Shown here piece by piece: positions 594-59,484 of a stretch of DNA of 61,468 bases (its first letter is position 1; each line of letters starts with the position of its first letter). The position numbers and the translations under genes were made by a program. The stretch comes from a virus (Duplodnaviria; Caudoviricetes), in the IMG/VR virus record IMGVR_UViG_3300012924_000002, positions 1 to 61,468 of that record. One strand, written 5' to 3'. The notes below the pieces were generated by a model. It was given only the letters and a program-made list of their open reading frames with translations, was not told the origin of the DNA and made no database searches.

Positions 594-645
594 TTCGACC
601 TCCTTCGGGTCGGACCGAAAAGTGGTTTTCGGCCGAAAATTCGGC

Positions 646-23872: not shown

Positions 23873-24062
23873 CGACCCCTCCCGGGGCGTGGTTTTCGCA
23901 CAGCATCCCCGCCGGGTAAAGCCGGGCCGGGCCGCCGCCGCACCTGCCGCACGGCCCGGCGCGCTCCGCTTCCCAGTCACGTCCGGCGAAGTGGGATTCC
24001 CCCACCCATTTGCCGTCTTCATAGTGACCGCGGACCCCGGAGATGTGCATCTCATCGATCAT
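23865..24062 (-). CDS. Small Zn-finger protein
   Basis: C.RC...RLYPAG.LC..H. Confidence 0.55.
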   Translation of the reverse strand: MIDEMHISGVRGHYEDGKWVGESHFAGRDWEAERAGPCGRCGGGPARLYPAGMLCENHAPGGVDA

Positions 24063-30485: not shown

Positions 30486-30683
30486 TCAGAACAGCGCGTC
30501 TGGCTGCTCTATCATATTCCACACCCTGGAGGTGTATTTACGTACCATCTCGTATGCGTCGTCCCAATGATCGTCACAGTGGTAGATCTTCCCGGTTGCG
30601 GGTGTCGCGCCACCGGTCGCGGAGACTTCGCCGGTGGCGAGGTGTGCGCAGAACCGGCAGGTGAGTGCCCGCTGTATCGTCAA
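30486..30683 (-). CDS. Small Zn-finger protein
   Basis: TTGA overlap; CRFC...CDDH. Confidence 0.55.
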   Translation of the reverse strand: MTIQRALTCRFCAHLATGEVSATGGATPATGKIYHCDDHWDDAYEMVRKYTSRVWNMIEQPDALF

Positions 30684-31231
30684 CCGTTCCGGCCTCGCGT
30701 GCGCGTACTGTGCGGGCGCGCCGCGAGGTCGGGCCACTTCAGCTTGACCAGCAGCTCCCGGGCCAGTTCCTGCTTCACGCCGATACTCTGCCCGCTGTAG
30801 TGGTGCATGCCGGCCGCCCAGCACCAGAACGCGTCAGCCTCGTCGCCGTTGCGGGGCCGGTAGTCGACGTCGAGCGCGGCGTCGACCATCGCCTGCTTAT
30901 CGGCCCGCCCACCACCGGTCCCGTATTTCTTCAGTGTCTGCGCGCCGATGTACATCAGCGGGATGCCATGTCCGGCCAGCAGCTCCCGGGCTACGCCGTG
31001 GACCAGCCCGAGCCGGACCAGGGTGATGGTGCCGCCGCGCATCGACGGCGGTACCTCCTCGGCTACCGCCACGTCGGGTTTGGAAAGGTCGATGTAGTAG
31101 GTCAGTGCCCGCCTGAAGTGGACTAGCCGGTTGTCGCCGGCGCCCTTCGGCTCGATCGTGGTCATCTGCCCGGACGGCAGGCAGATACCGGTCTTCACGA
31201 TCGAGAGGTCCAGCCCCACCACCCGGGTCAC
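30680..31231 (-). CDS. ruvC: RuvC-like Holliday junction resolvase
   Basis: VVGLDLS..TG, VAEE, LKKYGTG.G.ADK..M, DEADA. Confidence 0.88.
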   Translation of the reverse strand: MTRVVGLDLSIVKTGICLPSGQMTTIEPKGAGDNRLVHFRRALTYYIDLSKPDVAVAEEVPPSMRGGTITLVRLGLVHGVARELLAGHGIPLMYIGAQTLKKYGTGGGRADKQAMVDAALDVDYRPRNGDEADAFWCWAAGMHHYSGQSIGVKQELARELLVKLKWPDLAARPHSTRTRGRNG

Positions 31232-31458
31232 TTGGCGCCGTCGAGGAGGTCGGCCCGGCGGTTCAGATACCAGGCGGCTTTGCGCAGATCGACGCTGGTG
31301 TCCGCACCCGGCTTCGACCCAGCCCGGACGATGTACTTCAGTGCGTTGCCCGTGTGGAAGTCCATCTTCATCGCCTCGATCAGATCGATGGCGTCGTACT
31401 GTTTGCCGTCCAGCTCCAGCCGGTAGTGCGCCGGGTGGTCAACCTCTTCACCGTTCAC
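31228..31458 (-). CDS. DUF3310-family protein
   Basis: VDHPAHY...F.TGNALKYIVRAG.K...DLRKAAWYL. Confidence 0.88.
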   Translation of the reverse strand: MNGEEVDHPAHYRLELDGKQYDAIDLIEAMKMDFHTGNALKYIVRAGSKPGADTSVDLRKAAWYLNRRADLLDGAK

Positions 31459-31628
31459 CGGTCCCGCCGGCCCTTCATGTCGTCGCGTTCGATGTCGACC
31501 ACATCAGGTGCGTCGATGGCCAGGCGCACCTGATGTCCGACCTGTATCTTCATGACGGTTATGGTGATGGCTCCGTCGCTGGTGCGCAGGATCAGCGACT
31601 CACCCTCGCCGCGGCTAAGCGCCAGCAT
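31455..31628 (-). CDS. csrA: CsrA/RsmA-family translational regulator, 57 aa (not in ORF track)
   Basis: MLALSRGEGESLILRTSDGAITITVMKIQVGHQVRLAIDAPDVVDIERDDMKGRRDR fits the CsrA pattern ML.L.R..GES..I...I.V.V......VR.GI.AP..V...R.E; AAGGGG RBS; coupled to both neighbours. Confidence 0.85.
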   Translation of the reverse strand: MLALSRGEGESLILRTSDGAITITVMKIQVGHQVRLAIDAPDVVDIERDDMKGRRDR

Positions 31629-32526
31629 TGCTGTCCCCTTCCGCTGGCCGGGTCTCTTCGATTTCCGCTGTGGTCACATCGATGACCCGCTGAACCTCGG
31701 CCCTGGTCATCTCGTTCGAGCTGGTGATTTCACGGCCGACAATGTCGCTGATACCGGCCAGTCGCTGCTCGCGGGTCGGCTGGAAGTTGTCGAGCTGCGC
31801 CACTTCGGCAAGTTTGCCGAACATGTGGTTCAGCATCGGCCTCGGCGGTACATCACCCTGCCCGGTGGCGGGGTCCCCGCCCGGCAGCGACTCGGCCGCT
31901 GCCGGGGTCGCCTGCCGGTTGGAGCGGGCCGCTGCGGGCTTGCGCGCGGCGCCGCGGTTGACTTGCGCGCGGACGCCGGCAGGCTCCTGCCCGTCGGAGA
32001 TCATCGTGGCCATGGCATCGTCGTCCTCTTCCGCAGCGATCCCGAGTAGCGCGGCCAGGATGTACCGGCGTAGGTAGGTGAGTCGCCCACCGAGGGTTTG
32101 AATGTTCTCGGCCCCGGCGATGGGCCATTCCCCGTCGAGGGTTTCGCCGGACTCGTGTCGCAGGCTGTACCGGATCGACAGTCCTTTGCCGTCGGATGCG
32201 GCTCCGGGCAGGCATGCGAACGACAACCTGTTGGCTCCGAGGATCGGTAGGGCCAGGTTCGAGATGCTGGCCAGGGTGGCATAGCTGTAGCTGTATGGCT
32301 CTTTGGCGGCGTCCTTCGGGACCACGGTGACTCGGCGGTCGCGTTTGATCTCGGCCCGACCGATCTCGATCTGCGCTTTCGCGAGGGCGGCGTTCAGCTC
32401 GGGGGTGACACCGCGGGCGACCCGTTCTCCGACCGCCACCCTTTCCACGAGGGCCTCTCTGCGCCGCTCGTATGCCTTGATCAGGTCTTCCCCGGTCAGG
32501 AACTCCTGGGGCTGTGGTGTGCTCAC
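31615..32526 (-). CDS. ERF-family ssDNA annealing protein
   Basis: YSYATL, LRHESGE, Q.LG..LTYLRRY.L..LLGIA.EEDDD. Confidence 0.88.
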   Translation of the reverse strand: MSTPQPQEFLTGEDLIKAYERRREALVERVAVGERVARGVTPELNAALAKAQIEIGRAEIKRDRRVTVVPKDAAKEPYSYSYATLASISNLALPILGANRLSFACLPGAASDGKGLSIRYSLRHESGETLDGEWPIAGAENIQTLGGRLTYLRRYILAALLGIAAEEDDDAMATMISDGQEPAGVRAQVNRGAARKPAAARSNRQATPAAAESLPGGDPATGQGDVPPRPMLNHMFGKLAEVAQLDNFQPTREQRLAGISDIVGREITSSNEMTRAEVQRVIDVTTAEIEETRPAEGDSNAGA

Positions 32527-33356
32527 AGGTCATCTACCTTCGTGATCGCGTAGCGGGCGGTGCGGGGCGGGATCAGCGGGTCGCCGCGCAGGAACTTCGA
32601 GTCCTCCACGATCCGGGCGACTTCCTTGATGAACAGGAAGTCCCGGTACACGTCCGGCCCCGTCTCCAGCGGGATCGCGCTGTACCCGTCGGCGGTCAGG
32701 TGCACTGCGATCGTCAGTTCGACGTGCGGCATCTCGATCTCGGAGCCGTCGGGTAGCACCAGCCAGCGGGAATGCCGGTACGGCCCGAGCTGGTAGGCGC
32801 TCTCCCCGTACACCCCGGACGCCGAAGTCTTCCAGTCGATGATCGCCGGGAAGCGGCCCTCGGCGTCGGGGGTGTAGATCCCGTACTCGGATAGGTCGGG
32901 CAGCAGGATCGAGCCGATCGCGTCGAGCTTGCCGGCGTGGTCGTGTTCGTCGGCGGAGTGCACGACCGCCTCCGTGTACCACGCCTGAAAGTCGAACTCT
33001 TCGATGAACGTCGCCGCGGACCGGACGTAGCCGATCAGCTCGGGAGGGACGTCCACGGTCTCTTCCGCGAGGAGCCTGTCAGCGAACTTGTGGATGGTCG
33101 AACCCTTGGCGCCGGCCTTGTTCAGCTTGCGGTAGGGGGCCTTACGGATCTCGTTGTAGCGCTCGACGGGGGGCAGCTTCGCAAGCTCATCCCAGTGGTC
33201 GACGGCATACCCGGCGGCCTCCTCGGCGTGCCACTTCATCAGGCCCGGCTTCGGCAGGCCGGCACCCTGGACGGTGGTCACCCCGGGGACTTTCTCCCCC
33301 GTCTCCACCCGGCGGTACGAATGCCCGCGGCCGTGGTTGCGGATCTCTATTGCCAC
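32523..33356 (-). CDS. PD-(D/E)XK exonuclease
   Basis: PGVTTV, KGSTIH, TE..V, AGKLD, IIDWKTS, QL..Y. Confidence 0.85.
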   Translation of the reverse strand: MAIEIRNHGRGHSYRRVETGEKVPGVTTVQGAGLPKPGLMKWHAEEAAGYAVDHWDELAKLPPVERYNEIRKAPYRKLNKAGAKGSTIHKFADRLLAEETVDVPPELIGYVRSAATFIEEFDFQAWYTEAVVHSADEHDHAGKLDAIGSILLPDLSEYGIYTPDAEGRFPAIIDWKTSASGVYGESAYQLGPYRHSRWLVLPDGSEIEMPHVELTIAVHLTADGYSAIPLETGPDVYRDFLFIKEVARIVEDSKFLRGDPLIPPRTARYAITKVDDL

Positions 33357-33422
33357 GAAGTGCCTCCTCCATGAGACAGGCCCGGCCGCGGAAGGTCCCA
33401 CGGCCGGGCGGGCAGGAACATC

Positions 33423-34007
33423 TCAGATGATGAAACGGGGGTCGGACACTGCCGCTGTGGTGTTGCCACCATCCGTGTCGACACGCTCGTATTGGTCGCC
33501 CGGCCAGTCCGCCGGCAGGGTTTCCCGCAACATGCGCAGGATGCCCAATATGGTGCGGATCAGCTCGCCGCGGTGTTCCTGGCAGAGGATCTGGTCGTCG
33601 TCGTCGAGCTGCTTGTCGTTGCGTAGGTCCGCCCACATGGCGTCCTCGGCCGCCCGGAGAAGGGTCGCCGCGGTACTCGCCTCGACGTGGCTCGCCCGGC
33701 TGAGGCAGGTCGTCCGAGGCCGCCCGGCGGTGACCGCATCCCCTTCCAGCATGATCGCTTCGGTGTCCAGCGCGACCAGCACGGCAGGTCCACAGATCGG
33801 CACCGGACTCCGGGACACCACCGTTGCGAGGTAGCTTGCCGGGACGTTCAGCGGCATCGGACGGCTGTCCTCCCGGACGTACACCCCGAAGTTTCGGCTC
33901 AATCCGACCCGGACGGCTACACCGCCCAGCAGGTCGGACATGTAGCCGTCGGACGCTTTGGCGTCCACGATGCGGGGCCATGCATTGTCCGGCAGATGTA
34001 AGAACAT
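33423..34007 (-). CDS. Hypothetical protein
   Basis: GAAAGG RBS; N..AS...PICGPAVL motif. Confidence 0.6.
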   Translation of the reverse strand: MFLHLPDNAWPRIVDAKASDGYMSDLLGGVAVRVGLSRNFGVYVREDSRPMPLNVPASYLATVVSRSPVPICGPAVLVALDTEAIMLEGDAVTAGRPRTTCLSRASHVEASTAATLLRAAEDAMWADLRNDKQLDDDDQILCQEHRGELIRTILGILRMLRETLPADWPGDQYERVDTDGGNTTAAVSDPRFII

Positions 34008-34011
34008 GGGG

Positions 34012-34320
34012 TCAGAACCTTTCCTGATAGGACTCGATGAGCGCCTGAGCGGTCGCCCGAGCGCGGTCGTAGCGGGCCTCGGCCTGCACGAGTTCATGGT
34101 TCATGGGCAGGTTGAAGGCACCATCGGCCAGGGTCATTTGCTCAATGACACGTGTCAGGTGGTGTGCCGACGCGACCCATTCGAGCATCTCTTCGGGGTG
34201 CGCACTGATCAGGTGGCGTAGGCGCAACTTCGCCGTCTCGGTGGGTTCCATCAGGCTGAACCCGCTGTCCTTAGCGAAGTTGTGGCCACCGGAGAGGTAT
34301 GGACGATTCACGTCGCTCAC
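34012..34320 (-). CDS. Hypothetical protein
   Basis: GTGA overlap with the Toprim gene. Confidence 0.6.
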   Translation of the reverse strand: MSDVNRPYLSGGHNFAKDSGFSLMEPTETAKLRLRHLISAHPEEMLEWVASAHHLTRVIEQMTLADGAFNLPMNHELVQAEARYDRARATAQALIESYQERF

Positions 34321-35276
34321 CCCTCGCCGAAGCGTTCGTCGGCGTAGCTTGCGATCTCGGCCCAGTTGTCGGAGACGCGCCGCAGCTGCTGGCGCTCCCC
34401 GGCCTCTCGGGCAACCCACTCCTCGTACAGGTCCCGGTCGAGGTGTTCTTCGATCTTGCCGCGCACCAGTTCGGCCAGCGCATCCGGCGGCAACGCGTCC
34501 AACTCCCACGACTCGTAGCCGTGCTCCTCCGCGTAGCTTTGCGCCCGGCTGTCGCTCATCTTCGCCGGATTCGGGGGCGGGTTGTACTCGTCGATCTGGT
34601 CGCGGTTCAGGGCGATCCGTTCGAAGCTCAGCCGCCGCTCAGCCAATATGCCGTGATCCTCGGCGATGATCGTCCGGAGGCGATCCTCGTTGTCCCGCGA
34701 CATGTCGATGCCCGACGGGTCATGGTCACCCAAGTGCAGCACGGTGACCCGGGTGCCGTCCGAGACGATCCAGCCGAGCCGACGGGCGGCCCTCCACAGA
34801 GCTGAGGAGGACATGTAGCCACGACACGCCATGTATGGCGTGTCCAGGCCCTCCGCGACCCCGCCGATGACGCCGGCGAGGGCCTCCTTCTCCACCCACA
34901 CGGCTACCCGCTCGGGCTGCTCCTGCCATTTGTCCACGGAGTAGCTGGCGCGAGCACTGTTGATAATGTCGCCGGGGGTCTCCCAGTGGGGGCTGATGTG
35001 CTCACCGCGAGTCCGGTCCTCGATGTGGAACCAGTCGATCAGTCCGCACATCCGGGCCTTGTCGACGATCGACCCGAGCCGCTTATACGAGCGTTCAGTG
35101 TTGTGTCCGGTCGGCCAGTCCGCGGTGAGGCCGCGGGCGACGAACTGGTAGTAGAGCTGGCGCAGGGTCAGGCTGTAGCCAGCCGTGGAGTACTCCCGCG
35201 CAATGGTCGCCGCTTGCTCCGCCACGGCCAGCTGGGCTGGCCGCATCGTGTTCGGCTCGTACTGGATCTTCGGCAC
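34317..35276 (-). CDS. Topo VI-A/Spo11-like Toprim protein
   Basis: TLRQLYYQ, VWVEKEAL, RGY.S.S, LGDHDPSG.DM, RIAL, WELDAL. Confidence 0.8.
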   Translation of the reverse strand: MPKIQYEPNTMRPAQLAVAEQAATIAREYSTAGYSLTLRQLYYQFVARGLTADWPTGHNTERSYKRLGSIVDKARMCGLIDWFHIEDRTRGEHISPHWETPGDIINSARASYSVDKWQEQPERVAVWVEKEALAGVIGGVAEGLDTPYMACRGYMSSSALWRAARRLGWIVSDGTRVTVLHLGDHDPSGIDMSRDNEDRLRTIIAEDHGILAERRLSFERIALNRDQIDEYNPPPNPAKMSDSRAQSYAEEHGYESWELDALPPDALAELVRGKIEEHLDRDLYEEWVAREAGERQQLRRVSDNWAEIASYADERFGEG

Positions 35277-35645
35277 GTTGTTTCGCTCCTATCCTTGGGT
35301 GCTGTGTGCCTTTCGAGGCCCCTACTTCGGGTCGCTGATTTTGACCTGCCTGCTAGCGCGTACCCGGCGTCGTTCCTTCGCGACAGCCAGCCGTTCCGGC
35401 GACCCCTGCTGCTGCGCCCGCTGGCGCTGTGCGCGTCCGGCGCCGGCAACCGCATCCGTCGTGATACGTGGACTCCACCACATGGCGAGAACCTTTCGGG
35501 GGGTTAGAAGAGTTGGGCGGCCGGGACAGCGCGTCGGGAAAACCTTGACCGGCCGCTGGCCGGCCGCCCCGCCGGTTTAGCACCCGGTCCGGCTCCCGGT
35601 TGAGATCCCCCGGTCATCCGACCAAGAGGGGCCGGGGGTCGTGCG

Positions 35646-35718
35646 TGGACCGGGCGGGGATCGAACCCGCGAGTGAAGGTCTGAAGAAGACCCAACGGGG
35701 GCGCCAGCCCCCCAGCCC
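35646..35718 (-). ncRNA. 73-nt tRNA-like cloverleaf with non-canonical D and anticodon arms
   Basis: GGGCTGG/CCGGTCC-A acceptor; GCGGG-TTCGATC-CCCGC T arm; 5-nt loop in the anticodon-position arm; no CCA. Confidence 0.65.
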
Positions 35719-35771
35719 TAGTGCTTCCCGTTTCGCGGAGACCGGCCGGGAAGCGAACGCCGGATCGCAGA

Positions 35772-35810
35772 CCACCCGGGCGGTAAGCAGTTAGAAACCC
35801 GCCCGGGTGG
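35772..35810 (-). terminator. 12-bp GC hairpin after the DUF932-like gene
   Basis: CCACCCGGGCGG / CCGCCCGGGTGG. Confidence 0.55.
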
Positions 35811-35817
35811 ACCCCCG

Positions 35818-37029
35818 CTAAACCAGGTCGAGAACCTTGACGGCTGCCGCCTCCAGTGCGTCAGCGCGTTCCGCGCTCGCGACGGTCTGCGCTACGGAGG
35901 TGACCGCGTTCAGCACGCCACCGGAGGTGTGCTGACCGCCGAGAAGGAAGTGTGACCAGATGTCCTCGCGCTCCTTCTCGGTGAAGTTCAGCGCCTTACC
36001 AACCCGCTCGATCGTGGCCGCCCCGTCGGTGATGGTCCGGCCGGCCTTCGCGGCGAGCTTGCCGACCTGCTCCTGCCAGTACTGCGGCGACAGGAACTGG
36101 CCGACAGCGTCCTTCGTCTTCGCCTTGATCAGTGCGCGTTGGGCCTGCTGGGTTTCGTCGGACCAGTTGATCGTCCCCTGCTCCAGCCGACCGCCAAGGT
36201 GCACCTGACCGATGGCGTCGGACTCGATCGCCAGCCCGTTGAAGCACACCCGGAATTTGGCGTAGGGGACAATCTTGAACATGCCGTCGCCGACCTCGGA
36301 GTTCTTCAGCTTGAACCCGGCCCACAGGGTCTCGCCGTCACCGCCGTAGCGGCTCATCATGTCGGCGACCCGGTCAAAGTTCTCGAACATGCCGGCCCGG
36401 GTGACGCCCGGGGAGTTGAACGGGGAACGGTACTGCTCCAGTAGCGCCTTCGCGGACACGGCAACCTGGGGTGCCATGAAGTTGACGAACATGTGGCGGT
36501 CGGACAGGTCCGCCGACGAGACCGTGACCTTGCCCTCCAGTCCGGGCACCCCGGACATGCCTTCCAGTGCGGCAGTCAGCACGTCGTAGTTGTCCATGAC
36601 CCGGTACTTCGAGGACAGCAGTGCCCGCGCGGTCGGGGCCGCGCCGTCGGCCTCCGCGTACCCACGGAACAGGAAGCTGCGGGCGTCCGCCGGGTAGCCC
36701 GCGCTGAAGCCGTCGGGGCTGCGGCCGTGCCACAGACCGTTGACCATGTCAGCGGCAACGTCGGGCCGTTCGGCGAACATGCGCCGCGCGAACGGGATGC
36801 CGATCTTCAGCGCGTTGGCGACCTGCTCGATGAATACGTCGTTCGGCTCGAACGCCCGGGTCAGCGTGTCGGTGCTGCCGGGGATCTGCTCCGTGACTTC
36901 GATCAGGCCCTTGCCGGTGACGTGCAGGTCGGTGGCCAGTCGCACGATGTCAACCTTGCGGGCTTCCAGCTCGGAGAGCGTTTCGCGGAGCTGGGAGAAG
37001 CTGATGTTGCGCTCAGAAAGCGACTGCAT
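35818..37029 (-). CDS. DUF932/DUF945-like mobile-element protein
   Basis: RALLSSKY..MDN.D, GF.L.NSEVG.G, R.CFNG, H.G. Confidence 0.7.
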   Translation of the reverse strand: MQSLSERNISFSQLRETLSELEARKVDIVRLATDLHVTGKGLIEVTEQIPGSTDTLTRAFEPNDVFIEQVANALKIGIPFARRMFAERPDVAADMVNGLWHGRSPDGFSAGYPADARSFLFRGYAEADGAAPTARALLSSKYRVMDNYDVLTAALEGMSGVPGLEGKVTVSSADLSDRHMFVNFMAPQVAVSAKALLEQYRSPFNSPGVTRAGMFENFDRVADMMSRYGGDGETLWAGFKLKNSEVGDGMFKIVPYAKFRVCFNGLAIESDAIGQVHLGGRLEQGTINWSDETQQAQRALIKAKTKDAVGQFLSPQYWQEQVGKLAAKAGRTITDGAATIERVGKALNFTEKEREDIWSHFLLGGQHTSGGVLNAVTSVAQTVASAERADALEAAAVKVLDLV

Positions 37030-37077
37030 GGGGGCGATCCCTCCTGGATCTTTGCGGCAGTAAACCCTACCGCCTAG

Positions 37078-37098
37078 TGTAACGCGTCGCGCGTGACA
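37078..37098 (-). promoter_or_regulatory. 21-bp motif with -10-like TACACT
   Basis: TGTAACGCGTCGCGCGTGACA. Confidence 0.65.
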
Positions 37099-37113
37099 AC
37101 CATTCCGCGTAGG

Positions 37114-37449
37114 TCACAGGTATTTCTTCGTCCGGGGTGACCGCTTATGCAGCCACAGGGCGGCCTGCCGGGCGGTCCACGAGTTGCCGCCGCTACCGAC
37201 CCGGGTGATGCGCCCGTCCGCGCGCACGCGCAGTACAACAGTGATCCGCCGCGCCCCGACGTCCTTCAGGTACAGCCGGACCACGGCGTTGTCGCCGGGC
37301 TCGTCGCCCCGCTCGATCGTCTGGATGGGGCCGTAGTCGAAGCCGAGCCGGCCGAGTTCGCGCATCACTTCGCGCGTCCACTTCTCCTCTTCGCGCCACA
37401 GCCGGTCGTCCTGCTCCCGGACGGTGGGAAGGCGCCTGATGATCCTCAT
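37114..37449 (-). CDS. Hypothetical protein
   Basis: Hairpin RBS GATCC-ATGGAG-GGATC. Confidence 0.65.
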   Translation of the reverse strand: MRIIRRLPTVREQDDRLWREEEKWTREVMRELGRLGFDYGPIQTIERGDEPGDNAVVRLYLKDVGARRITVVLRVRADGRITRVGSGGNSWTARQAALWLHKRSPRTKKYL

Positions 37450-37481
37450 TGCAAGATCCCTCCATGGATCAAGGTGAAAAC

Positions 37482-37516
37482 TGAGAGGGGCCGGGCCTGC
37501 ACCCCGGCCCCTCTCA
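37482..37516 (-). terminator. Intrinsic terminator after the HTH gene
   Basis: 14-bp stem followed by GTTTT on the minus strand. Confidence 0.7.
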
Positions 37517-37828
37517 CTCGTCGGCGGTGAGCTTCGCCAGTTCGACGGCCAGCTCCGCCCCGCGCTCCGCATCAATCGCGGAGGCGACCTGGCGAAGCAG
37601 ATCGTTCGGCACCTCCGACGGAACCTGAACGGTGAAGTGCGAACCCCCGGACAGCGTCCGGGACAGCCACTGCCGACCCGGGCGCTTACCCGTCTGCCGC
37701 TCGATCCGGTCGGCGAGCTGGTTACGATCGATCCCCTCGCGGGCCATCAATGCGCGGATTCGCTCGGCGATACGCGCGGAAGCCGTACTGCGGGGCTCGG
37801 TGCGAGCCCTGGTTGTTGCATCCGTCAC
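37514..37828 (-). CDS. XRE/Cro-like HTH regulator
   Basis: IAERIRALM.REGI.RNQLA.RI...RQWLSR.LSG; a 21-bp motif lies in its own upstream region. Confidence 0.75.
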   Translation of the reverse strand: MTDATTRARTEPRSTASARIAERIRALMAREGIDRNQLADRIERQTGKRPGRQWLSRTLSGGSHFTVQVPSEVPNDLLRQVASAIDAERGAELAVELAKLTADE

Positions 37829-37859
37829 GACGCCTCCTCTCCTCTGTGCTGACCTTCAA

Positions 37860-37880
37860 TGTAACGCGCCAGACGTGACG
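37860..37880 (-). promoter_or_regulatory. 21-bp motif with -10-like TACATT
   Basis: TGTAACGCGCCAGACGTGACG. Confidence 0.6.
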
Positions 37881-37913
37881 GTGCTTCCCTCGTCTGGCGC
37901 GAAACAATGCAGG

Positions 37914-38477
37914 TCAGGTCCCATCCGTGCGAGAAGTCGGATCGGTTGCGCGCCCAGCCGACACATCAGCCAGCCGACCCAGCAGCTTCCGCAGTTCCTC
38001 GCTGGTCAAGACGAACGACCGTTCGGGGGACAGCTGGTTCCGGCCAGTCCACGTGACGTTGACGCTGACGCCGAGACGTAGCGCCTGCTCCTGCAGAGTC
38101 TCCGCGGCCTTTTCCGCTACGATTCGGCGCTCAAGGTGAGCCTCCCGCGCGGCATCCTCGCTCCGCCGGGTTTCGGCCTGCTCCGTGCGGGCCTCTTGCC
38201 AGGTCCCGCGGATGTGCCGGATGTCGACGTAGCGGTCCCCGGATAGGGACTCCATCGCGATCCCCGTTTCGGGGTCGAGGAACACCACGCGAACGTGGCG
38301 GCCTTGGCTCGACGCCGTGTAGGTGTAAGGCTTCATCGACCAGACGCCGCGCTGGCTTTCGACGAACCGGTTGGTAGACAGTAGCCGCACCCGCCGCGAT
38401 CCGCTGTCGTACTTACGCCAGTCGGCAGCCCGGTTGACGAGGTACTCGGCCCCGACCCTCAGTAGCTTGTGTTGCAT
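37914..38477 (-). CDS. Hypothetical protein
   Basis: Hairpin RBS CCC-AAGGAG-GGG. Confidence 0.65.
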   Translation of the reverse strand: MQHKLLRVGAEYLVNRAADWRKYDSGSRRVRLLSTNRFVESQRGVWSMKPYTYTASSQGRHVRVVFLDPETGIAMESLSGDRYVDIRHIRGTWQEARTEQAETRRSEDAAREAHLERRIVAEKAAETLQEQALRLGVSVNVTWTGRNQLSPERSFVLTSEELRKLLGRLADVSAGRATDPTSRTDGT

Positions 38478-38494
38478 GATCCCCTCCTTGGGGT

Positions 38495-38845
38495 TCAGCG
38501 GTTCAGGGCCGCCTTGACGGCGGCATCGACAGAGGCGGGTAGCCGACCCGACGAGGAATGCAGCGCGTCGAAGTCCCACATCCGCCAGCAGCGTGTGCGG
38601 GTGAGCCGCGCCGGGCGACTGCCGCTGGCCGGCCGCTGCTCGTATCCGATCACCACCACCGCGTACGCGCCGCGCCCGTTCGGGGTGGTGGTGACGGTGG
38701 CAGCCACGGGCACGAAGTAGGCGTCCCGGCCAGGCACCCTCAACGCTCCGGAGCCTGCAATGCCTAGATGGATCCGCCTTCCGTCTCTCCCTTTCACCGT
38801 CGCGGTGACTTCGGAGCGGAGCCCGCTGTACGTTCCAGTCCTCAT
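38495..38845 (-). CDS. Hypothetical protein
   Basis: ATGA overlap; AAAGGA RBS. Confidence 0.6.
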   Translation of the reverse strand: MRTGTYSGLRSEVTATVKGRDGRRIHLGIAGSGALRVPGRDAYFVPVAATVTTTPNGRGAYAVVVIGYEQRPASGSRPARLTRTRCWRMWDFDALHSSSGRLPASVDAAVKAALNR

Positions 38846-39234
38846 TTTCGGTGGTCCTTTCCGGCATACACCAGCGGCCCGAGGTTCAATTCCAGGGCGG
38901 CATCGTTGACCATGGAACGGAGGTCGGCCGAGTTCCAGGTGTTCCAGCACTCCTCGCTGAGCCTGTGCGTGCCGTGGTCCAGCGCGTCATGGTTCGCCCG
39001 CTGTCCCTTGATCCAGCCGTCCAGTACGGCCAGCACCAGGGCGAGGGCTTCGCGTTGCGCGCCCCCTTTGGAGACCATCTCTGGCTTGTAGACCAGCCGT
39101 TCGGAGGTCTCGAAGACCTCCGGGCCTTTCTCCGTGTTGTCGTCGGCCCACTGTTTGGCGTCGACCGCGTTGCCGAACGCGAGTTCCACCGGCGCCGGGT
39201 CGGTCGCGTTGTCGTATCGGACGATGAAGCCCAT
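38842..39234 (-). CDS. Hypothetical protein
   Basis: Hairpin RBS GGTCC-AAAGGAG-GGATC. Confidence 0.65.
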   Translation of the reverse strand: MGFIVRYDNATDPAPVELAFGNAVDAKQWADDNTEKGPEVFETSERLVYKPEMVSKGGAQREALALVLAVLDGWIKGQRANHDALDHGTHRLSEECWNTWNSADLRSMVNDAALELNLGPLVYAGKDHRK

Positions 39235-39261
39235 ATCAAGATCCCTCCTTTGGACCGGGGC

Positions 39262-39492
39262 TCAGGCCCCTCGCGTGTCCGTGGTCAGCGTCCACGTCTT
39301 CGCCCCTGAGTAGGTCGAGCCCGCCTCGCGGACCTCGCCGAAGCCGACGAGTCGCCTGATCGAGGGTCGAACTCGGGTCACGCTCAGCGCGAGTTGGTCG
39401 GCAATCTCTCCGATCGACTCCGGCGCTTCGTTCCTGCGGATCAGCCGGGCTAGGTGCTCGGTCACCTGCCGGTCGATGTCGTCGCTGCTCAT
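39262..39492 (-). CDS. Winged-HTH protein
   Basis: SIGEIADQL.LS.TRV..SIRRL...GEV. Confidence 0.7.
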   Translation of the reverse strand: MSSDDIDRQVTEHLARLIRRNEAPESIGEIADQLALSVTRVRPSIRRLVGFGEVREAGSTYSGAKTWTLTTDTRGA

Positions 39493-39530
39493 CGGTTCTC
39501 CTTCACTGCTTGCGCCGGCTCGGGTCGGAT

Positions 39531-39589
39531 CGCACCCCCGGCCGGAATCGAACCGGTGAGCGGGCCGTGACCATCACGGTTCCGGGGGT
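39531..39589 (-). ncRNA. Mini tRNA-like element
   Basis: ACCCCCGG..hairpin..CCGG-TTCGATT-CCGG-CCGGGGGT-GCG. Confidence 0.6.
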
Positions 39590-39594
39590 GTCGT

Positions 39595-39765
39595 TCACGA
39601 GTTGAAGGCGAAGTGTTCCGGCGTCGAGGTGATGCACGGTTTGCGCGTGGCGACGTCGTAGGTGGTCCAACGCTCGAACGCGTACTCCTCCAAGTCCGGC
39701 CAGCTCAGCGAGTCGATGAGGTTCACGTACAGCGCCTTGCGGGCTTTGCGCGAGGCTTTCAACAT
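39595..39765 (-). CDS. Small hypothetical protein
   Basis: Hairpin RBS GATCC-AGGAG-GGATC. Confidence 0.6.
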   Translation of the reverse strand: MLKASRKARKALYVNLIDSLSWPDLEEYAFERWTTYDVATRKPCITSTPEHFAFNS

Positions 39766-39804
39766 CGGGTGATCCCTCCTGGATCTGTGTCGGCTTCCTG
39801 CCAC

Positions 39805-39849
39805 TGTAACGCGCGGCGCGTGACAGTCATTCCCGTGCTGCGCGTTACA
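39805..39849 (-). promoter_or_regulatory. Tandem pair of 21-bp motifs
   Basis: TGTAACGCGCGGCGCGTGACA and ATTCCCGTGCTGCGCGTTACA. Confidence 0.65.
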
Positions 39850-39859
39850 GGCGATGCCG

Positions 39860-40189
39860 CTAGATCAGCTTCTTGTTGACCTTCCCGGAGCCGCCGCAGG
39901 CGCGACAGGTCTCCGTCGTCCAGACGGACTTGCCCTTGACAATCTTGTTGACCTGCACGGTGCCATTGCCTTGACAGTTCTGGCACGCTACAACGTTCGC
40001 CATTTCAAGATCCCCTCCATGGAAGGCCCGGCGGATCGGGCCGGCGTGGATATGCCAGGCGGTCTCACACACCCTGTCGTCGTTGACCTGACAGAACGGC
40101 GTCACCTCGTGGGAGACGTGTGGCCCGTCAGTGGTGAGCTCTCGAAGGACCGGGTAGCGGTCACTTCGTGCGTTGTGCGGATGGAACAT
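39860..40189 (-). CDS. DnaJ-type Zn-finger protein with a second in-frame start at 40003
   Basis: CQNCQGNG...CRACGGSG; both ATGs follow the same 16-mer. Confidence 0.65.
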   Translation of the reverse strand: MFHPHNARSDRYPVLRELTTDGPHVSHEVTPFCQVNDDRVCETAWHIHAGPIRRAFHGGDLEMANVVACQNCQGNGTVQVNKIVKGKSVWTTETCRACGGSGKVNKKLI

Positions 40190-40237
40190 TTCAAGATCCC
40201 CTATTCAGTTGTGGAGGCCCGGCCCGTTGCCGGGCCT

Positions 40238-40280
40238 CGTGCCTGCCGGGGGCTCGAACCCCGGTGCCTGCCGGTCAGGC
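40238..40280 (-). ncRNA. Mini tRNA-like element
   Basis: GCCTG-accggcaggca-CCGGGG-TTCGAGC-CCCCGG-CAGGC-ACG. Confidence 0.65.
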
Positions 40281-40288
40281 GGTAGCGG

Positions 40289-40723
40289 CTAACGGCCGGG
40301 CAGGGTGGCTGCGCCGCCCTCCGCGGGAACGAACACGCCAGCCGGGTGCGGCGCCCCCATGTCGGTGCCGTACAGGTAGGCGCCTACCAGCTGCGGCCGC
40401 TCCCCGTTAGCGACACCTTCGGCGAGGACGACCTCTTCCGTTCGGAAGTACGTGTTGCCGCTCGCGATGAAGTCGTCCACGAAGATCCAGCGGCGGCCGA
40501 TCTCGCCCTCGAACCTGCTGGTCGAGTGGCTCCCGTCGCCGGGCTTACGGACGATCGCCCACTTCTTCCCGAGTGCCCTGGCGAGGATCGGGACGACTAG
40601 CGCCCCGGACAGGCCCCGCCCGACCATCGTGTCGTAGGTGACGTCCTTCAGCGCCTGCCGCGCTGCCAAGATCAGAGCCTCGGGCTCGTCGAACGCTTTG
40701 AACGAATAGCTGACGTGGCGCAT
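40289..40723 (-). CDS. Type I phosphoribosyltransferase
   Basis: VGRGLSG, IVRK, WIFVDDFIASGNT PRPP-binding loop. Confidence 0.85.
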   Translation of the reverse strand: MRHVSYSFKAFDEPEALILAARQALKDVTYDTMVGRGLSGALVVPILARALGKKWAIVRKPGDGSHSTSRFEGEIGRRWIFVDDFIASGNTYFRTEEVVLAEGVANGERPQLVGAYLYGTDMGAPHPAGVFVPAEGGAATLPGR

Positions 40724-40754
40724 GTCCCCTCCATGGGTCGGTGGTTGCGCTTTA

Positions 40755-40797
40755 CGTGCCCGCCCCGGGCTCGAACCGGGGTGCCTGCCAGCCGGGC
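40755..40797 (-). ncRNA. Mini tRNA-like element
   Basis: GCCCG-gctggcaggca-CCCCGG-TTCGAGC-CCGGGG-CGGGC-ACG. Confidence 0.65.
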
Positions 40798-40804
40798 TGC
40801 AAGA

Positions 40805-41050
40805 TCAGAAGTTTGCGAGGTGGTTCAGGTAGCGGGTCTGCGCGTCGTACCGGCCCTGCATTGCCAGCATCCGCACGTCCCATCCGGTGATCTGCTCGTT
40901 CAGCGGCCACTCGTCGAGTGCGTGCACCATGGCCTGGAACGCCTCGATCTGGTCGGTGTCGCGGATCGGGTGGACCCGCTGCGACTCGGGCCGGGAGAAC
41001 ATGTTCTCCTCGACGGCCAGCGCCGCGCCTTCCTCGGCGATGATGTCCAT
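40805..41050 (-). CDS. Hypothetical protein
   Basis: TGATG coupling to the upstream ORF. Confidence 0.6.
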   Translation of the reverse strand: MDIIAEEGAALAVEENMFSRPESQRVHPIRDTDQIEAFQAMVHALDEWPLNEQITGWDVRMLAMQGRYDAQTRYLNHLANF

Positions 41051-41178
41051 CAGGCGTTCCGCCGAGCCCGGTAGTCGGCGACGTCACGCCGAACCTTGCG
41101 GTCGCTAGCTCGGGCGATGAACGGGGCGAGCGTGCCGGCGGTGACCAGGGCTAGCGCGGTGAGCAGTAGTTCGACCAT
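41050..41178 (-). CDS. 42-aa TM peptide (not in ORF track)
   Basis: MVELLLTALALVTAGTLAPFIARASDRKVRR...; hairpin RBS AACCC-AAGGAG-GGGTT. Confidence 0.6.
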   Translation of the reverse strand: MVELLLTALALVTAGTLAPFIARASDRKVRRDVADYRARRNA

Positions 41179-41214
41179 CTGGAACCCCTCCTTGGGTTGT
41201 GGCAGATCTTGCGG

Positions 41215-41256
41215 AGTGCCTGGGGCGGGAATCGAACCCGCCCTTCACCATCAGGC
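41215..41256 (-). ncRNA. Mini tRNA-like element
   Basis: GCCTG-atggtgaa-GGGCGGG-TTCGATT-CCCGCCC-CAGGC-ACT. Confidence 0.65.
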
Positions 41257-41364
41257 GATGCGGCCAGCCCGACGCGCCTTGCGAGTGATCCGGCCGATCC
41301 GGTAGTTCACGTAGCTGCCGCTGACCTTGACAACGGCAGCGACGAACAGGTTCAGCAGGAACAT
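41251..41364 (-). CDS. 37-aa basic/hydrophobic peptide (not in ORF track)
   Basis: GAGGAG RBS; MFLLNLFVAAVVKVSGSYVNYRIGRITRKARRAGRIA. Confidence 0.55.
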   Translation of the reverse strand: MFLLNLFVAAVVKVSGSYVNYRIGRITRKARRAGRIA

Positions 41365-41399
41365 GACGTTCTCCTCTCAAGATCGGCCAGGGCTGGCCT

Positions 41400-41465
41400 C
41401 GTACCCGGGACCGGAATCGAACCGGCCCTACACCGTCGGGGGGGCGTTTTGAGGTCTCCCGGGGT
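41400..41465 (-). ncRNA. Mini tRNA-like element
   Basis: ACC(C)CGGG...GCCGG-TTCGATT-CCGGT-CCCGGGT-ACG. Confidence 0.55.
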
Positions 41466-41498
41466 GAGGCCGGGGGCGGGTTGCCCCCGGCGTGCTCC

Positions 41499-41741
41499 CT
41501 ACTCGTCTCCGAAGTGACCGGCGTTCAAGGTGCGCCGGTGTGGCTCGGTGGCGGGTTCCGGAAGGTCAACCGGGTCAACCGGCTTGCCGACCTTCGGAGT
41601 GAGGATCCTGATCAGGACCGTTAGCCGGGTGTAGATCCGGACCCCGACCTTGGCGTCCAGCGCGGTTACCACGCTGAGCACCCAAGTCGCAAGGGTGATC
41701 CCCTTGTCGTCCAGGACGTAAGCGGCGATCGTTTCGATCAT
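41499..41741 (-). CDS. First gene of the leftward early operon
   Basis: Hairpin RBS AACCC-AGGGAG-GGGTT. Confidence 0.6.
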   Translation of the reverse strand: MIETIAAYVLDDKGITLATWVLSVVTALDAKVGVRIYTRLTVLIRILTPKVGKPVDPVDLPEPATEPHRRTLNAGHFGDE

Positions 41742-41799
41742 CGTGAACCCCTCCCTGGGTTACCTCTGTGGAGTTGTTTTTGCCTTGCTTGCCTTACGA

Positions 41800-41950
41800 G
41801 AAGAACTATCCCACGTCACGCGTGACAGCGTCAAGGGGTTTCGCCAAGATTCTTCTATCTCTTTTCTGTGACGCGTTTCCGCAGGTCAGAGACCATATTG
41901 GAAAATCTTGGCGCCAATCTTCCCACGCGACGCGTGACAGCGTATAGTCC
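41800..41950. promoter_or_regulatory. Divergent promoter region with two 21-bp motifs
   Basis: Leftward TTGACG-N18-GATAGT; rightward -10 TATAGT; motifs at 41807-41827 and 41919-41939. Confidence 0.65.
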
Positions 41951-41998
41951 CTTTACGTAAGGCACACACGGGCACATGGGATTTCCAGGGAGGGAATC

Positions 41999-42367
41999 AT
42001 GATCCGCAACCTGATCACTGCCGCAGCAGTCATCTCCGCTACCGCGCTCACCGCCTGCGCGCCCCCCGCCCCGCTGAACTGCCCGGCCGCGGACTACGCG
42101 ATCACGACCAGCACCATCCGCGGGCCGCTGAACAACCACACGTGGCCGATCACGATCACCATCACCGACCCTGCCGGCGGTAGCCGCGCCGTCGCTTACG
42201 AGACGCTCGACGACCAGGGCAAGATCCGGGCCGCCGCCACCGTCACCACCCACGGTGGAGCCGCCTCTGCGAAGTGGAACATCGGTGAGTACGTCACCTC
42301 CCTGAAGCTGCGCACCGAGGTCGACTCTGTTGACGGGTGCGACACCACCGACGGCTACATCCGCTGA
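41999..42367 (+). CDS. Lipoprotein
   Basis: Lipobox LTAC; hairpin RBS TTCC-AGGGAG-GGAA. Confidence 0.75.
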   Translation: MIRNLITAAAVISATALTACAPPAPLNCPAADYAITTSTIRGPLNNHTWPITITITDPAGGSRAVAYETLDDQGKIRAAATVTTHGGAASAKWNIGEYVTSLKLRTEVDSVDGCDTTDGYIR

Positions 42368-42405
42368 GCACGATCCACCGACACCACCCCAAGGGAGACC
42401 CGATC

Positions 42406-49224: not shown

Positions 49225-49436
49225 TGGCCCTCCGGGAATGGTGTGCCGACGAGGGGAAGATCAGCTACCCGACCGCAGACGACGCCTGGAGGGCGCTCGC
49301 CTGGATGGGCAAACGCCAGCGCGAGCGGAAGGGCTCCGCCTACCGCTGCCCAAAGTGCCAGGGATGGCACCTGACTAGTAAACCGAAAAGCGCACGAGAC
49401 GAGATGCGCCACGCCTGGAGGAGGTTCAGTCGATGA
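49224..49436 (+). CDS. Small Zn-ribbon protein
   Basis: C...GK..Y...AYRCP.C.GWHLTS. Confidence 0.7.
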   Translation: MALREWCADEGKISYPTADDAWRALAWMGKRQRERKGSAYRCPKCQGWHLTSKPKSARDEMRHAWRRFSR

Positions 49437-50342: not shown

Positions 50343-50711
50343 CTAGTTGACACGCCGGCCGTTGACTACGGCACCGGAGTGAATGTCTGCGGCCGGCGAG
50401 ACCTGCCCATGCGTGAACAGTGCGAGCACCGCCAGCAGCGCCGTGGAGAACGCGGACACGTTGCCCTGGCTGAGGTGCAGCCCGTACGCCCCGGCGAGCG
50501 CGGCCAGAGCGGACACGGCATACGTCCACACCTGCGGCGCGATCGGACGTGTCTTCCAGGATGCGATCACGAGCGCGACAGCGTTGACGGCGGCAACCCA
50601 CCAGGCCGCCTCGGCGGGGGTGAGTGAGTGCCAGCCGAACCCGGCCACCCAGTCCAGGACACCTGCGAGCGCGGCGAGCCCGAGAGTCCATTGCGCGGTT
50701 AGCTTGCCCAT
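50343..50711 (-). CDS. Holin
   Basis: 4 TM helices, C-terminal QVSP motif, last gene of the tail operon. Confidence 0.75.
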   Translation of the reverse strand: MGKLTAQWTLGLAALAGVLDWVAGFGWHSLTPAEAAWWVAAVNAVALVIASWKTRPIAPQVWTYAVSALAALAGAYGLHLSQGNVSAFSTALLAVLALFTHGQVSPAADIHSGAVVNGRRVN

Positions 50712-51145: not shown

Positions 51146-51147
51146 GG

Positions 51148-59465: not shown

Positions 59466-59484
59466 GCCGCCGCTACCTCCCTGG

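What the first reader, a model, noticed from the sequence alone, without database searches (positions are those of the whole stretch)
31455..41996. Candidate phage-encoded CsrA regulon: a csrA gene plus early-gene Shine-Dalgarno sequences displayed in A(N)GGAG hairpin loops
Seen: many early-region RBSs are stem-loops whose loop is the SD. In mRNA sense: TGTCTC-ATGGAG-GAGGCA (33361-33378, exonuclease), GATCC-AGGAG-GGATC (37036-37050 and 39771-39785), GATCC-ATGGAG-GGATC (37455-37470), CCC-AAGGAG-GGG (38481-38492), GGTCC-AAAGGAG-GGATC (39240-39256), TTCC-ATGGAG-GGGA (40011-40024), CCC-ATGGAG-GGG (40726-40737), AACCC-AAGGAG-GGGTT (41183-41198), AACCC-AGGGAG-GGGTT (41746-41761), and on the plus strand TTCC-AGGGAG-GGAA (41983-41996). 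Stem sequences vary while pairing and loop are kept. I did not see this layout at the head/tail RBSs I inspected. Established: CsrA/RsmA dimers bind C-ANGGAN-G hairpin loops overlapping SD sequences and block translation. Inference: the phage CsrA, encoded downstream on the same strand, shuts off early-gene translation as a temporal or lysis/plasmid-state switch. I do not know of such a self-contained phage circuit in an actinophage.
Basis: partly seen in the sequence, partly recalled or inferred. Interest (0 to 1): 0.93.

Follow-up and report, generated by a model that had tools for sequence, protein, structure and literature searches.

The report
Phage CsrA gene and ribosome-site hairpins
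A soil actinomycete phage carries its own copy of the bacterial translation regulator CsrA and folds the ribosome-binding sites of about eleven early genes into small hairpins shaped like CsrA docking sites, so it may run a private translation switch, although no binding has been tested.

Summary
All 11 hairpins are at the stated coordinates. The 57-aa ORF at 31455-31628(-) is a CsrA-family protein (Pfam 44.1 bits, cut-off 27) and keeps the essential Arg. SD-in-loop hairpins occur at 9 of 15 genes in 35.8-42.4 kb, against 10 of 85 elsewhere and 3 of 21 head/tail genes. They exceed flank shuffles (19 observed, 9.3 expected). Four csrA-free actinophages sit at expectation: looped strong SDs are 14/34 here and 5/125 there. 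Outer stem pairs covary.

Caveats:
- The hairpins are weak. Only 6 of 11 are the minimum-energy fold, and none beats shuffles in energy.
- Several are repeated RBS cassettes, so about five are independent.
- Six similar looped SDs lie outside the early region.
- Other csrA+ phages (F116 and 10 IMG/VR loci) show no such enrichment.
- No usable relative could be read.

The CsrA-hairpin link is therefore a coherent inference (about 0.45) and is not shown. This scan's earlier notes report the same design on other phage DNA. My paper searches found phage csrA genes but no phage-private regulon, and no csrA in an actinophage.

The parts
31455..31628 (-). csrA: 57-aa CsrA/RsmA-family protein. Its start overlaps the end of the ERF gene by 14 nt and its stop overlaps the next start by 4 nt.
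   Evidence: Pfam PF02599 44.1 bits against a cut-off of 27. PHROG 9500 'CsrA-like regulator'. Aligns to solved CsrA chains over residues 1-53. L2, L4, R6, G9, A40, P41 and R48 are invariant in 15 homologues. Homodimer model 0.44 against best control 0.00.
30680..33356 (-). Translationally coupled block: exonuclease, ERF, csrA, DUF3310-like gene, RuvC-like resolvase. Only the first gene has its own looped SD.
   Evidence: Gene calls and overlaps. Pfam ERF. PHROG exonuclease and RuvC-like families.
33361..33378 (-). SD hairpin TGTCTC-ATGGAG-GAGGCA, 4 nt before the exonuclease start. This is the first gene of the block that contains csrA.
   Evidence: An alternative fold is the MFE; closing-pair probability 0.84 in the longer context.
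37036..37050 (-). SD hairpin GATCC-AGGAG-GGATC before gene 35818-37029, just downstream of a promoter-like palindrome.
   Evidence: Not the MFE.
37455..37470 (-). SD hairpin GATCC-ATGGAG-GGATC before gene 37114-37449, after a terminator-like hairpin.
   Evidence: MFE
38481..38493 (-). SD hairpin CCC(C)-AAGGA(G)-GGG(G) before gene 37914-38477, directly after the upstream stop codon.
   Evidence: MFE. Loop probability 1.00.
39240..39256 (-). SD hairpin GGTCC-AAAGGAG-GGATC before gene 38842-39234.
   Evidence: Not the MFE.
39771..39785 (-). SD hairpin GATCC-AGGAG-GGATC before gene 39595-39765, downstream of a promoter-like palindrome.
   Evidence: MFE. Probability 0.92.
40011..40024 (-). SD hairpin TTCC-ATGGAG-GGGA before the 47-aa zinc-ribbon ORF 39860-40003.
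   Evidence: Not the MFE. A 1-nt deletion in its G run in the 29-kb relative leaves TCC/GGA pairing.
40726..40737 (-). SD hairpin CCC-ATGGAG-GGG (3 bp only) before the phosphoribosyltransferase-like gene 40289-40723.
   Evidence: Below my 4-bp cut-off. Not the MFE.
41183..41198 (-). SD hairpin AACCC-AAGGAG-GGGTT before the 42-aa ORF 41050-41178.
   Evidence: MFE
41746..41761 (-). SD hairpin AACCC-AGGGAG-GGGTT before gene 41499-41741, the first gene behind the leftward promoter-like site.
   Evidence: MFE
41980..41998 (+). SD hairpin (GAT)TTCC-AGGGA(G)-GG(G)AA(TC) before the lipoprotein-like gene 41999-42367, the first gene behind the rightward promoter-like site.
   Evidence: MFE, z -1.95
41805..41948 (.). 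Divergent promoter-like sites: minus strand 41834-41805, plus strand 41920-41948.
   Evidence: These are consensus matches only.
37078..37098 (.). Operator-like palindrome overlapping promoter-like hexamers. A second copy lies at 39805-39825.
596..612 (-). Looped SD outside the early region, before the gene that follows the major head gene. Others are at 20632-20646(-), 23875-23888(-), 58232-58246(-), 11282-11296(+) and 49415-49429(+).

Best explanation
The phage encodes a working CsrA-type RNA-binding dimer. It has placed the Shine-Dalgarno sequence of at least 11 genes in the apical loop of short hairpins, mostly C-G-closed A-N-GGA-G hexaloops, that end 0-7 nt before the start codon. Ten of these genes flank its divergent promoter region at 35.8-42.4 kb. 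The eleventh is the first gene of the coupled exo-erf-csrA operon.

The most likely mechanism is as follows. CsrA is made from the downstream recombination operon. It binds these loops, holds the SD in the hairpin and blocks 30S binding. Translation of the early genes is then turned down as CsrA accumulates. Through the exonuclease hairpin and translational coupling, CsrA also limits its own synthesis. In function this resembles the T4 RegA early-gene repressor, built from a borrowed bacterial regulator.

Shown: the gene, the family features, the hairpins, their position, their enrichment and their covariation.

Inferred: binding, repression, timing and autoregulation.
For: - CsrA family membership, with the essential Arg retained.
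- Canonical interleaved homodimer model: 0.44 against a best control of 0.00. The mark was reached by 20 of 30 solved pairs and 1 of 23 single chains; runs agree in at least 94% of contacts; pLDDT at least 72. This may reflect memory of solved CsrA dimers.
- All 11 loops start with A and show GGA. Eight are hexaloops closed by C-G, matching the stated preference for GGA in the loop of a short hairpin (PMC7366521 passages).
- The constant feature is the distance to the start codon, not the distance to promoters or terminators.
- Enrichment holds against shuffles, against late genes and against four csrA-free actinophages.
- Compensatory outer stem pairs.
- Two rarities occur in one genome. No Streptomyces, Arthrobacter, Microbacterium or Gordonia phage record matched the protein by tblastn at E<=10 among 50,697 records, and 0 of 4 control phages show the hairpin excess.
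- In 3 of 10 other csrA+ viral loci the csrA start itself lies behind a GGA-loop hairpin. This suggests that phage CsrAs read such sites.
Against: - There is no binding or expression evidence.
- The hairpins are weak (-4 to -9.6 kcal/mol). They are the MFE fold in only 6 of 11 cases and are never more stable than shuffles.
- There is only one GGA hairpin per leader and no conserved second site. By recall, CsrA dimers usually bridge two sites.
- Several hairpins are repeated cassettes (GGATCTTG..ATG three times, AACCC..GGGTTC twice), so there are only about five independent stems.
- Similar looped SDs occur at 10 of 85 other genes, and the early-versus-rest contrast fades among strong SDs (9/13 against 7/21, P=0.08).
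- csrA+ phage F116 (5 observed, 5.6 expected) and 10 csrA+ IMG/VR loci (25 observed, 22.9 expected) lack such an excess.
- The phage encodes no antagonist: no FliW, no GGA-dense RNA, no Rfam family.
Confidence: 0.45

Rival explanations
1. The hairpins are cis-acting RBS design and need no protein. In a 66% G+C transcript, a short local stem keeps a very strong SD in an exposed loop, or partly occludes it to tune initiation. The phage CsrA acts elsewhere, for example on host mRNAs.
For: - Looped SDs go with strong SDs across the whole genome (16 of 34 strong SDs), including head/tail genes.
- The stems are weak and easily opened by a ribosome.
- Other csrA+ phages do not show the hairpins.
- The studied phage CsrA-domain protein Bci was reported to affect host quorum sensing, motility and infection (PMC7546807 passages).
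Against: - Four other high-G+C actinophages with as many strong SDs show no such design.
- The major head gene and other highly expressed late genes lack it.
- The coincidence with a csrA gene that is otherwise unseen in actinophage records would be unexplained.
Confidence: 0.3
2. A different factor reads the hairpins. This could be the host's own CsrA, if the host is a flagellated actinomycete, or another phage or host RNA-binding protein or RNase. In the RNase case the hairpins would act as stabilisers of processed 5' ends next to the tRNA-like elements.
For: - Some Actinobacteria are listed among phyla that may use FliW to control CsrA (one passage of PMC4682653).
- Six T-arm-like elements lie between the same genes and could create processed 5' ends near the hairpins.
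Against: - The host is unknown.
- The hairpins keep a fixed distance to the start codon, not to the T-arm-like elements or promoters.
- The phage carries its own CsrA, so a host copy is not needed.
Confidence: 0.12
3. There is no structural function. A few RBS cassettes were copied within the early region, and the apparent stems follow from the CC...GG context of a G-rich SD.
For: - Repeated cassettes extend beyond the stems.
- The word CANGGAGG is not over-represented genome-wide (16 observed, 12.5+-3.5 expected).
- Generic GGA-loop hairpins are near expectation genome-wide (88 observed, 75+-9.3 expected).
- Fold energies are unremarkable.
Against: - At least five unrelated stem sequences keep pairing through changes on both sides.
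- The shuffle tests keep flank composition and still fail to reach the observed count in 2000 trials.
- Controls with the same SD type do not show it.
Confidence: 0.1

Closest known systems
CsrA/RsmA/RsmE repression at SD hairpins (E. coli CsrA; Pseudomonas RsmE on hcnA, PDB 2jpp is among the hits; target details recalled)
   Same: A small dimeric PF02599 protein with the essential Arg. The targets are short hairpins with GGA in the loop that overlap the SD (PMC7366521 passages).
   Different: Here both the regulator and the candidate targets are on one phage genome. There is one site per leader. No sponge RNA or FliW was found. The nearest cellular CsrAs found are about 50% identical, in Planctomycetota/Phycisphaerae and one Opitutae assembly.
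Phage-borne csrA genes: Bci of P. aeruginosa prophage AUS531phi, F116/phi297-type and Vibrio phage csrA (PMC7546807, PMC7366521)
   Same: A CsrA-domain gene carried by a tailed phage. PMC7366521 counts 30 csrA+ phages among 2517, some in hosts without csrA.
   Different: Those are proteobacterial phages, and the reported effects are on host traits. F116 shows no looped-SD excess. No actinophage record matched.
T4 RegA translational repressor of early mRNAs (recalled, no call)
   Same: This is the proposed logic: a phage protein binds the RBS of many early mRNAs, including its own operon, to shut off early translation.
   Different: Unrelated protein fold. RegA sites are not GGA hairpins. Nothing here has been tested.
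Same design noted earlier in this scan on other phage genomes (e1-6099457, e1-5853322, e1-6106936, e1-5999542, e1-6022616, e1-6038075, e1-5931951)
   Same: SD sequences in A-N-GGA-G loop hairpins at early or promoter-proximal genes, together with a phage CsrA-like gene.
   Different: Those notes describe divergent, fused or single-chain CsrA-like proteins in other lineages. Here the protein is a canonical 57-aa CsrA in a high-G+C actinophage. I did not re-test those genomes.

Membership tests
CsrA/RsmA protein family (PF02599) | Profile match above the curated cut-off over the whole beta1-beta5 core | tested here: met
   44.1 bits against 27, residues 1-49. 42.5 bits by six-frame search. PHROG 9500.
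CsrA/RsmA protein family (PF02599) | Conserved Arg at the beta5/helix junction (R44 of E. coli CsrA), essential for GGA recognition | tested here: met
   Arg48 aligns with that Arg in solved CsrA chains. It is invariant in 15 homologues. Its role is as stated in PMC7366521.
CsrA/RsmA protein family (PF02599) | Interleaved homodimer | tested here: inconclusive
   The model supports a dimer: 0.44 against a best control of 0.00. The mark was reached by 20 of 30 solved pairs and 1 of 23 single chains; at least 94% contact agreement; pLDDT at least 72. A pass may come from likeness to solved CsrA dimers.
CsrA/RsmA protein family (PF02599) | Binds GGA-loop RNA and represses translation | not testable with these tools
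   Needs EMSA, toeprinting or reporters.
CsrA operator sites on mRNA | GGA in the apical loop of a short hairpin overlapping the SD | tested here: met
   11 sites. The hairpin is the MFE fold in 6 of 11.
CsrA operator sites on mRNA | Two or more GGA sites per target so that one dimer can bridge them (recalled feature) | tested here: not met
   No conserved second site in the aligned leaders. Only the overlapping GGAGGGA occurs.
Complete Csr/Rsm system | An antagonist: a GGA-rich sponge RNA or FliW | tested here: not met
   No FliW at E<=1. No Rfam family at gathering score. No intergenic region above 5.8 GGA per 100 nt, and the richest long one is a missed gene. A host-encoded antagonist cannot be excluded.

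The most novel reading that the evidence does not exclude
A self-contained translational circuit in an actinophage. A canonical CsrA, captured from bacteria and made from the recombination operon, binds at least 11 SD hairpins on the phage's own early mRNAs and on its own operon leader. It gives a RegA-like early shut-off with negative feedback, in a host group where CsrA is uncommon and with no antagonist encoded.
Probability: 0.4. Interest if true: 0.75.

Novelty: new variant of a known kind. Interest (0 to 1): 0.6.

Why it matters
CsrA is studied as a global regulator of bacteria. Phage-borne copies are listed in surveys but their targets are unknown. If a phage uses CsrA on its own messages, it would be a compact, portable translational timer with defined operators: about 15-nt hairpins. 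That is easy to test by gel shift and reporters, and useful as an orthogonal translational switch in high-G+C actinomycetes. It would also explain why csrA genes travel on mobile elements into hosts that lack the Csr system.

Tried and rejected
- Close relatives: none in GenBank phages, IMG/VR, JGI metagenomes or GTDB genomes. Only cellular or viral CsrAs of 37-56% identity were found.
- Read laying showed that this 29-kb contig (run X2) spans the region with 102 differences over 31434-38960 and 41 over 39530-42400. Only 40 of 153 substitutions were printed, none above 34965, so stem covariation in the relative could not be read.
- RNA library X4: contigs identical to the window lie on parts of 32.3-39.4 kb. 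Nothing was laid on csrA or on 40.55-42.4 kb. Contigs cannot show absence, and DNA carry-over is possible, so I draw nothing from it.
- Co-occurrence test on unrelated csrA+ phages: F116 and 10 IMG/VR loci of 8-20 kb show no excess. My gene caller is poorly trained on such short loci.
- An annotation-free scan (hairpin plus start plus ORF of at least 35 codons) did not discriminate in high-G+C DNA: window 15 against 8.1+-3.1, BroPlease 11 against 6.5+-2.3. I dropped it.
- Sponge RNA: the GGA-rich stretch 7356-7706 is a missed small-terminase-like gene.
- Three Mycobacterium phage hits to the CsrA were reported. The two rows I saw lie inside a minor tail protein at 28% identity and E=5, so they are spurious. 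The third row was not listed.
- Host: the TraB-like protein matches only two Streptomyces plasmids, at 29% identity over 38-39% of its length. The host genus is left open.
- Supplements are closed. Supplementary Table 7 of PMC7366521 lists the csrA+ phages and might name an actinophage. The main text has 0 occurrences of 'Actinobacteria'.
- Paper searches that found no phage-private CsrA regulon: (0 papers with 'CsrA' and 'actinobacteriophage'). For most papers I saw listings only.
- My gene calls come from a home-made codon-bias caller with SD-weighted start choice. It was used identically on the controls. It missed at least one gene.

Full report
WHAT THE DNA IS. The window is a complete 61,468-bp virus record with direct terminal repeats and 66% G+C. 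It has no near relative in the collections I could search. The terminase is under 28% identical to actinophage terminases. The only nucleotide match is a 34-39-nt tRNA-like piece shared with Streptomyces phages. The TraB-like protein matches two Streptomyces plasmids at 29% identity. The host is therefore an unidentified soil actinomycete; that is an inference. My own codon-bias gene caller gives about 100 genes. PHROG matches place the head/tail genes at 237-9109 and 50343-61365 on the minus strand. A long leftward block of regulatory, nucleotide and recombination genes runs from 41741 downwards. Promoter-like sites diverge at 41.8-41.95 kb.

THE csrA GENE. ORF 31455-31628(-) encodes 57 aa.
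- It scores 44.1 bits on Pfam CsrA against a cut-off of 27 and matches PHROG 9500 'CsrA-like regulator'.
- It aligns with solved CsrA chains over residues 1-53.
- In an alignment of 15 homologues, L2, L4, R6, G9, A40, P41 and R48 are invariant. R48 is the counterpart of the Arg that PMC7366521 calls essential for recognising the first G of GGA (passages).
- Two copies are modelled as the interleaved CsrA dimer. The score is 0.44 and the best of 3 controls is 0.00. The mark was reached by 20 of 30 solved pairs and 1 of 23 single chains. Runs agree in at least 94% of contacts, and pLDDT is at least 72. Because CsrA dimers are solved, this shows likeness rather than proof.
- The gene sits in a coupled block exo-erf-csrA-DUF3310-like-ruvC, with overlapping stops and starts.
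- The nearest cellular CsrAs found are about 50% identical, in Planctomycetota/Phycisphaerae and one Opitutae assembly.

THE HAIRPINS. Each ends 0-7 nt before a start codon. Eight are A-N-G-G-A-G hexaloops closed by C-G, two are AGGAG pentaloops and one is a heptaloop. With a fixed rule (stem >=4 bp, at most 1 G-U, loop 4-7 nt holding GGA, GGA 4-15 nt from the start):
- 9 of 15 genes at 35.8-42.4 kb are looped, against 10 of 85 elsewhere (P=1.3e-4).
- 9 of 15 are looped against 3 of 21 head/tail genes (P=0.01).
- Among genes with a strong SD and their own intergenic spacer, the figures are 9 of 13 against 3 of 15 (P=0.02).
- Shuffling each 14-nt 5' flank gives 9.35+-2.62 looped SDs genome-wide, against 19 observed. 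For stems >=5 bp it gives 2.70 against 14. None of 2000 shuffles reached either value.
- In the partition function of -45..+15, early strong SDs lie in small loops more often than the strong SDs of two control phages (P=4e-4). The rest of the genome does not differ from those controls (P=0.32).

CONTROLS FROM OTHER PHAGES. I used four actinophages without any PF02599 match in their whole records: BroPlease, Saftant, KellEzio and Fizzles, at 63-68% G+C, with 50 kb or the whole record analysed. Run through the same pipeline, they sit at the shuffle expectation: 7, 7, 5 and 10 observed against 7.8, 6.2, 7.8 and 7.2 expected. Looped strong SDs with stems >=5 bp are 5 of 125 there and 14 of 34 here (P=1.9e-7). 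The word C-A-(0-2 N)-GGAGG stands at 13 of 100 RBSs here and 16 of 318 there (P=0.011).

STRUCTURE OR SEQUENCE? The inner two pairs are nearly always C-G, because the SD continues into G's. Among 8 unique stems, the outer positions 3-5 pair in 20 of 24 cells, against 15.0 when the 5' arms are permuted among hairpins (P=0.0025). Changes occur on both sides, for example A-T to T-A and G-C to A-T.

Several points argue against a strong autonomous structure.
- Folding -30..+3 gives the proposed hairpin as the MFE in only 6 of 11 cases.
- Energies are -4.1 to -9.6 kcal/mol, with z-scores from -1.95 to +1.13.
- Some RBSs are copies of one cassette: GGATCTTG..ATG at 37449, 39234 and 40003, and AACCC..GGGTTC at 41178 and 41741. 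There are therefore about five independent stems.
- The word CANGGAGG is not over-represented genome-wide (16 observed, 12.5+-3.5 expected), but 9 of its 16 copies are at RBSs.
- Generic GGA-loop hairpins are near expectation (88 observed, 75+-9.3 expected).

What is unusual is the placement, not the stability.

WHERE THE HAIRPINS SIT. Four of the five genes directly behind promoter-like sites carry one: 41741, 41999(+), 39765 and 37029. The exception is the HTH repressor-like gene 37514-37828. The others follow a stop codon, a terminator-like hairpin or a T-arm-like element. Three early genes with strong SDs lack a hairpin: 37828, 39492 and 41364. The exonuclease, first gene of the block that holds csrA, has one (33361-33378). 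Among strong SDs, early against rest is 9/13 against 7/21 (P=0.08).

DOES csrA GO WITH LOOPED SDs ELSEWHERE? I could not test this in relatives.
- The one near relative is a 29-kb contig in run X2, whose CsrA differs by one residue. It spans the region, lacks 39260-39530, and has a 1-nt deletion in the G run of hairpin 40011-40024 that leaves TCC/GGA pairing. Its substitutions above 34965 were not printed.
- Unrelated csrA+ phages do not show the excess. F116 gives 5 observed and 5.6 expected. Ten IMG/VR loci pooled give 25 observed and 22.9 expected (11 against 6.0 for stems >=5 bp).
- In three of those ten loci the csrA start itself lies behind a GGA-loop hairpin: L028 and L032 and L031. This looks like autoregulation.
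- This scan's earlier notes report the same design (SD in ANGGAG loops plus a phage CsrA-like gene) on at least seven other phage genomes. I treat these as leads, and I did not re-test them.

MECHANISM. My best reading, at about 0.45, is that the phage CsrA dimer binds the looped SDs and blocks initiation. This would turn early translation down as CsrA accumulates from the downstream operon, with feedback through the exonuclease leader. Points in favour are the family features, the exact operator shape, the fixed distance to start codons, the genome-specific excess, and the coincidence of two rarities in one genome. The points against are set out in the sections STRUCTURE OR SEQUENCE? and DOES csrA GO WITH LOOPED SDs ELSEWHERE? 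above. In addition, I found no second GGA site per leader and no antagonist: no FliW, no sponge-like RNA and no Rfam family.

The rival readings, with my odds, are:
- protein-independent RBS design, with CsrA aimed at host mRNAs (0.3);
- another reader, such as a host CsrA in a flagellated actinomycete, or an RNase-related role next to the T-arm-like elements (0.12);
- copied cassettes without any function (0.1).

COMPARISON WITH WHAT IS KNOWN. CsrA repression at GGA hairpins over the SD is textbook (PMC7366521 passages). Details of particular targets are recalled. Phage csrA genes are known:
- PMC7366521 counts 30 csrA+ phages among 2517, some in hosts without csrA.
- Bci, a CsrA-domain protein of a P. 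aeruginosa prophage, affects infection and host quorum sensing (PMC7546807 passages).
- tblastn of this protein against 50,697 phage records at E<=10 hit 80 records: Pseudomonas 48, Vibrio 27, Mycobacterium 3, one 'Bacteriophage sp.' and one uncultured phage. The two Mycobacterium rows I saw are spurious, and the third was not listed.

I found no paper describing a phage that targets its own RBSs with its own CsrA. Supplements were closed. The finding is thus a new variant of a known kind: a canonical CsrA in an actinophage, with a candidate private regulon. It is untested at the bench.

Noticed in passing
35657, 39544, 40250, 40767, 41228, 41413 (minus strand) and 60193: The T-arm-like word GGTTCGANNCC occurs 7 times against 0.89 expected. 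Six copies lie between early genes, often just upstream of a looped SD. ARAGORN calls only 35645-35734 a tRNA (Ala-GGC, 90 nt). Rfam finds nothing at gathering score. A 34-39-nt piece at about 40240-40278 matches Streptomyces phages Kaine, Saftant, BroPlease and GreenWeasel.
   Followed up: partly
37078-37098, 39805-39825; related copies near 37860, 41814-41827, 41931-41939: An operator-like palindrome (TGTCACGCG..CGCGTTACA type) overlaps promoter-like -35/-10 hexamers in front of early genes. It is probably the repressor operator set.
   Followed up: partly
41364 (-) and 48931 (+); 40189 and 40003 (-): RBS cassettes are repeated word for word. GAGAGGAGAACGTC-ATGTTC stands before two small genes on opposite strands. 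GGGGATCTTGAA-ATG occurs twice in one ORF (39860-40189), which gives nested starts.
   Followed up: no
39260-39530; 31296-31434; 38960-39013: The roughly 98.6%-identical 29-kb contig in run X2 replaces gene 39262-39492 by 80 other letters, skips 137 nt at 31296-31434 and replaces 52 nt at 38960-39013.
   Followed up: no
37564-37844: In a soil RNA library (X4), contigs identical to the window lie on parts of 32.3-39.4 kb. The deepest (30.5) covers the HTH repressor-like gene, which lacks a looped SD. DNA carry-over is not excluded.
   Followed up: no
L028:9980-9997, L032:9983-9999, L031:9981-9995: In three of ten other csrA+ viral contigs, the csrA start codon itself lies directly behind a GGA-loop hairpin. 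This suggests autoregulation of phage csrA genes.
   Followed up: partly
7356-7706 (-): This stretch was left without a gene by my caller. It is a small-terminase-like ORF that overlaps the large terminase start. Its 14 GGA triplets are coding, not a sponge RNA.
   Followed up: yes
P0008: A 552-aa sulfite-reductase-like protein is filed in the same 90% cluster as the 57-aa CsrA. This looks like a clustering artefact.
   Followed up: partly
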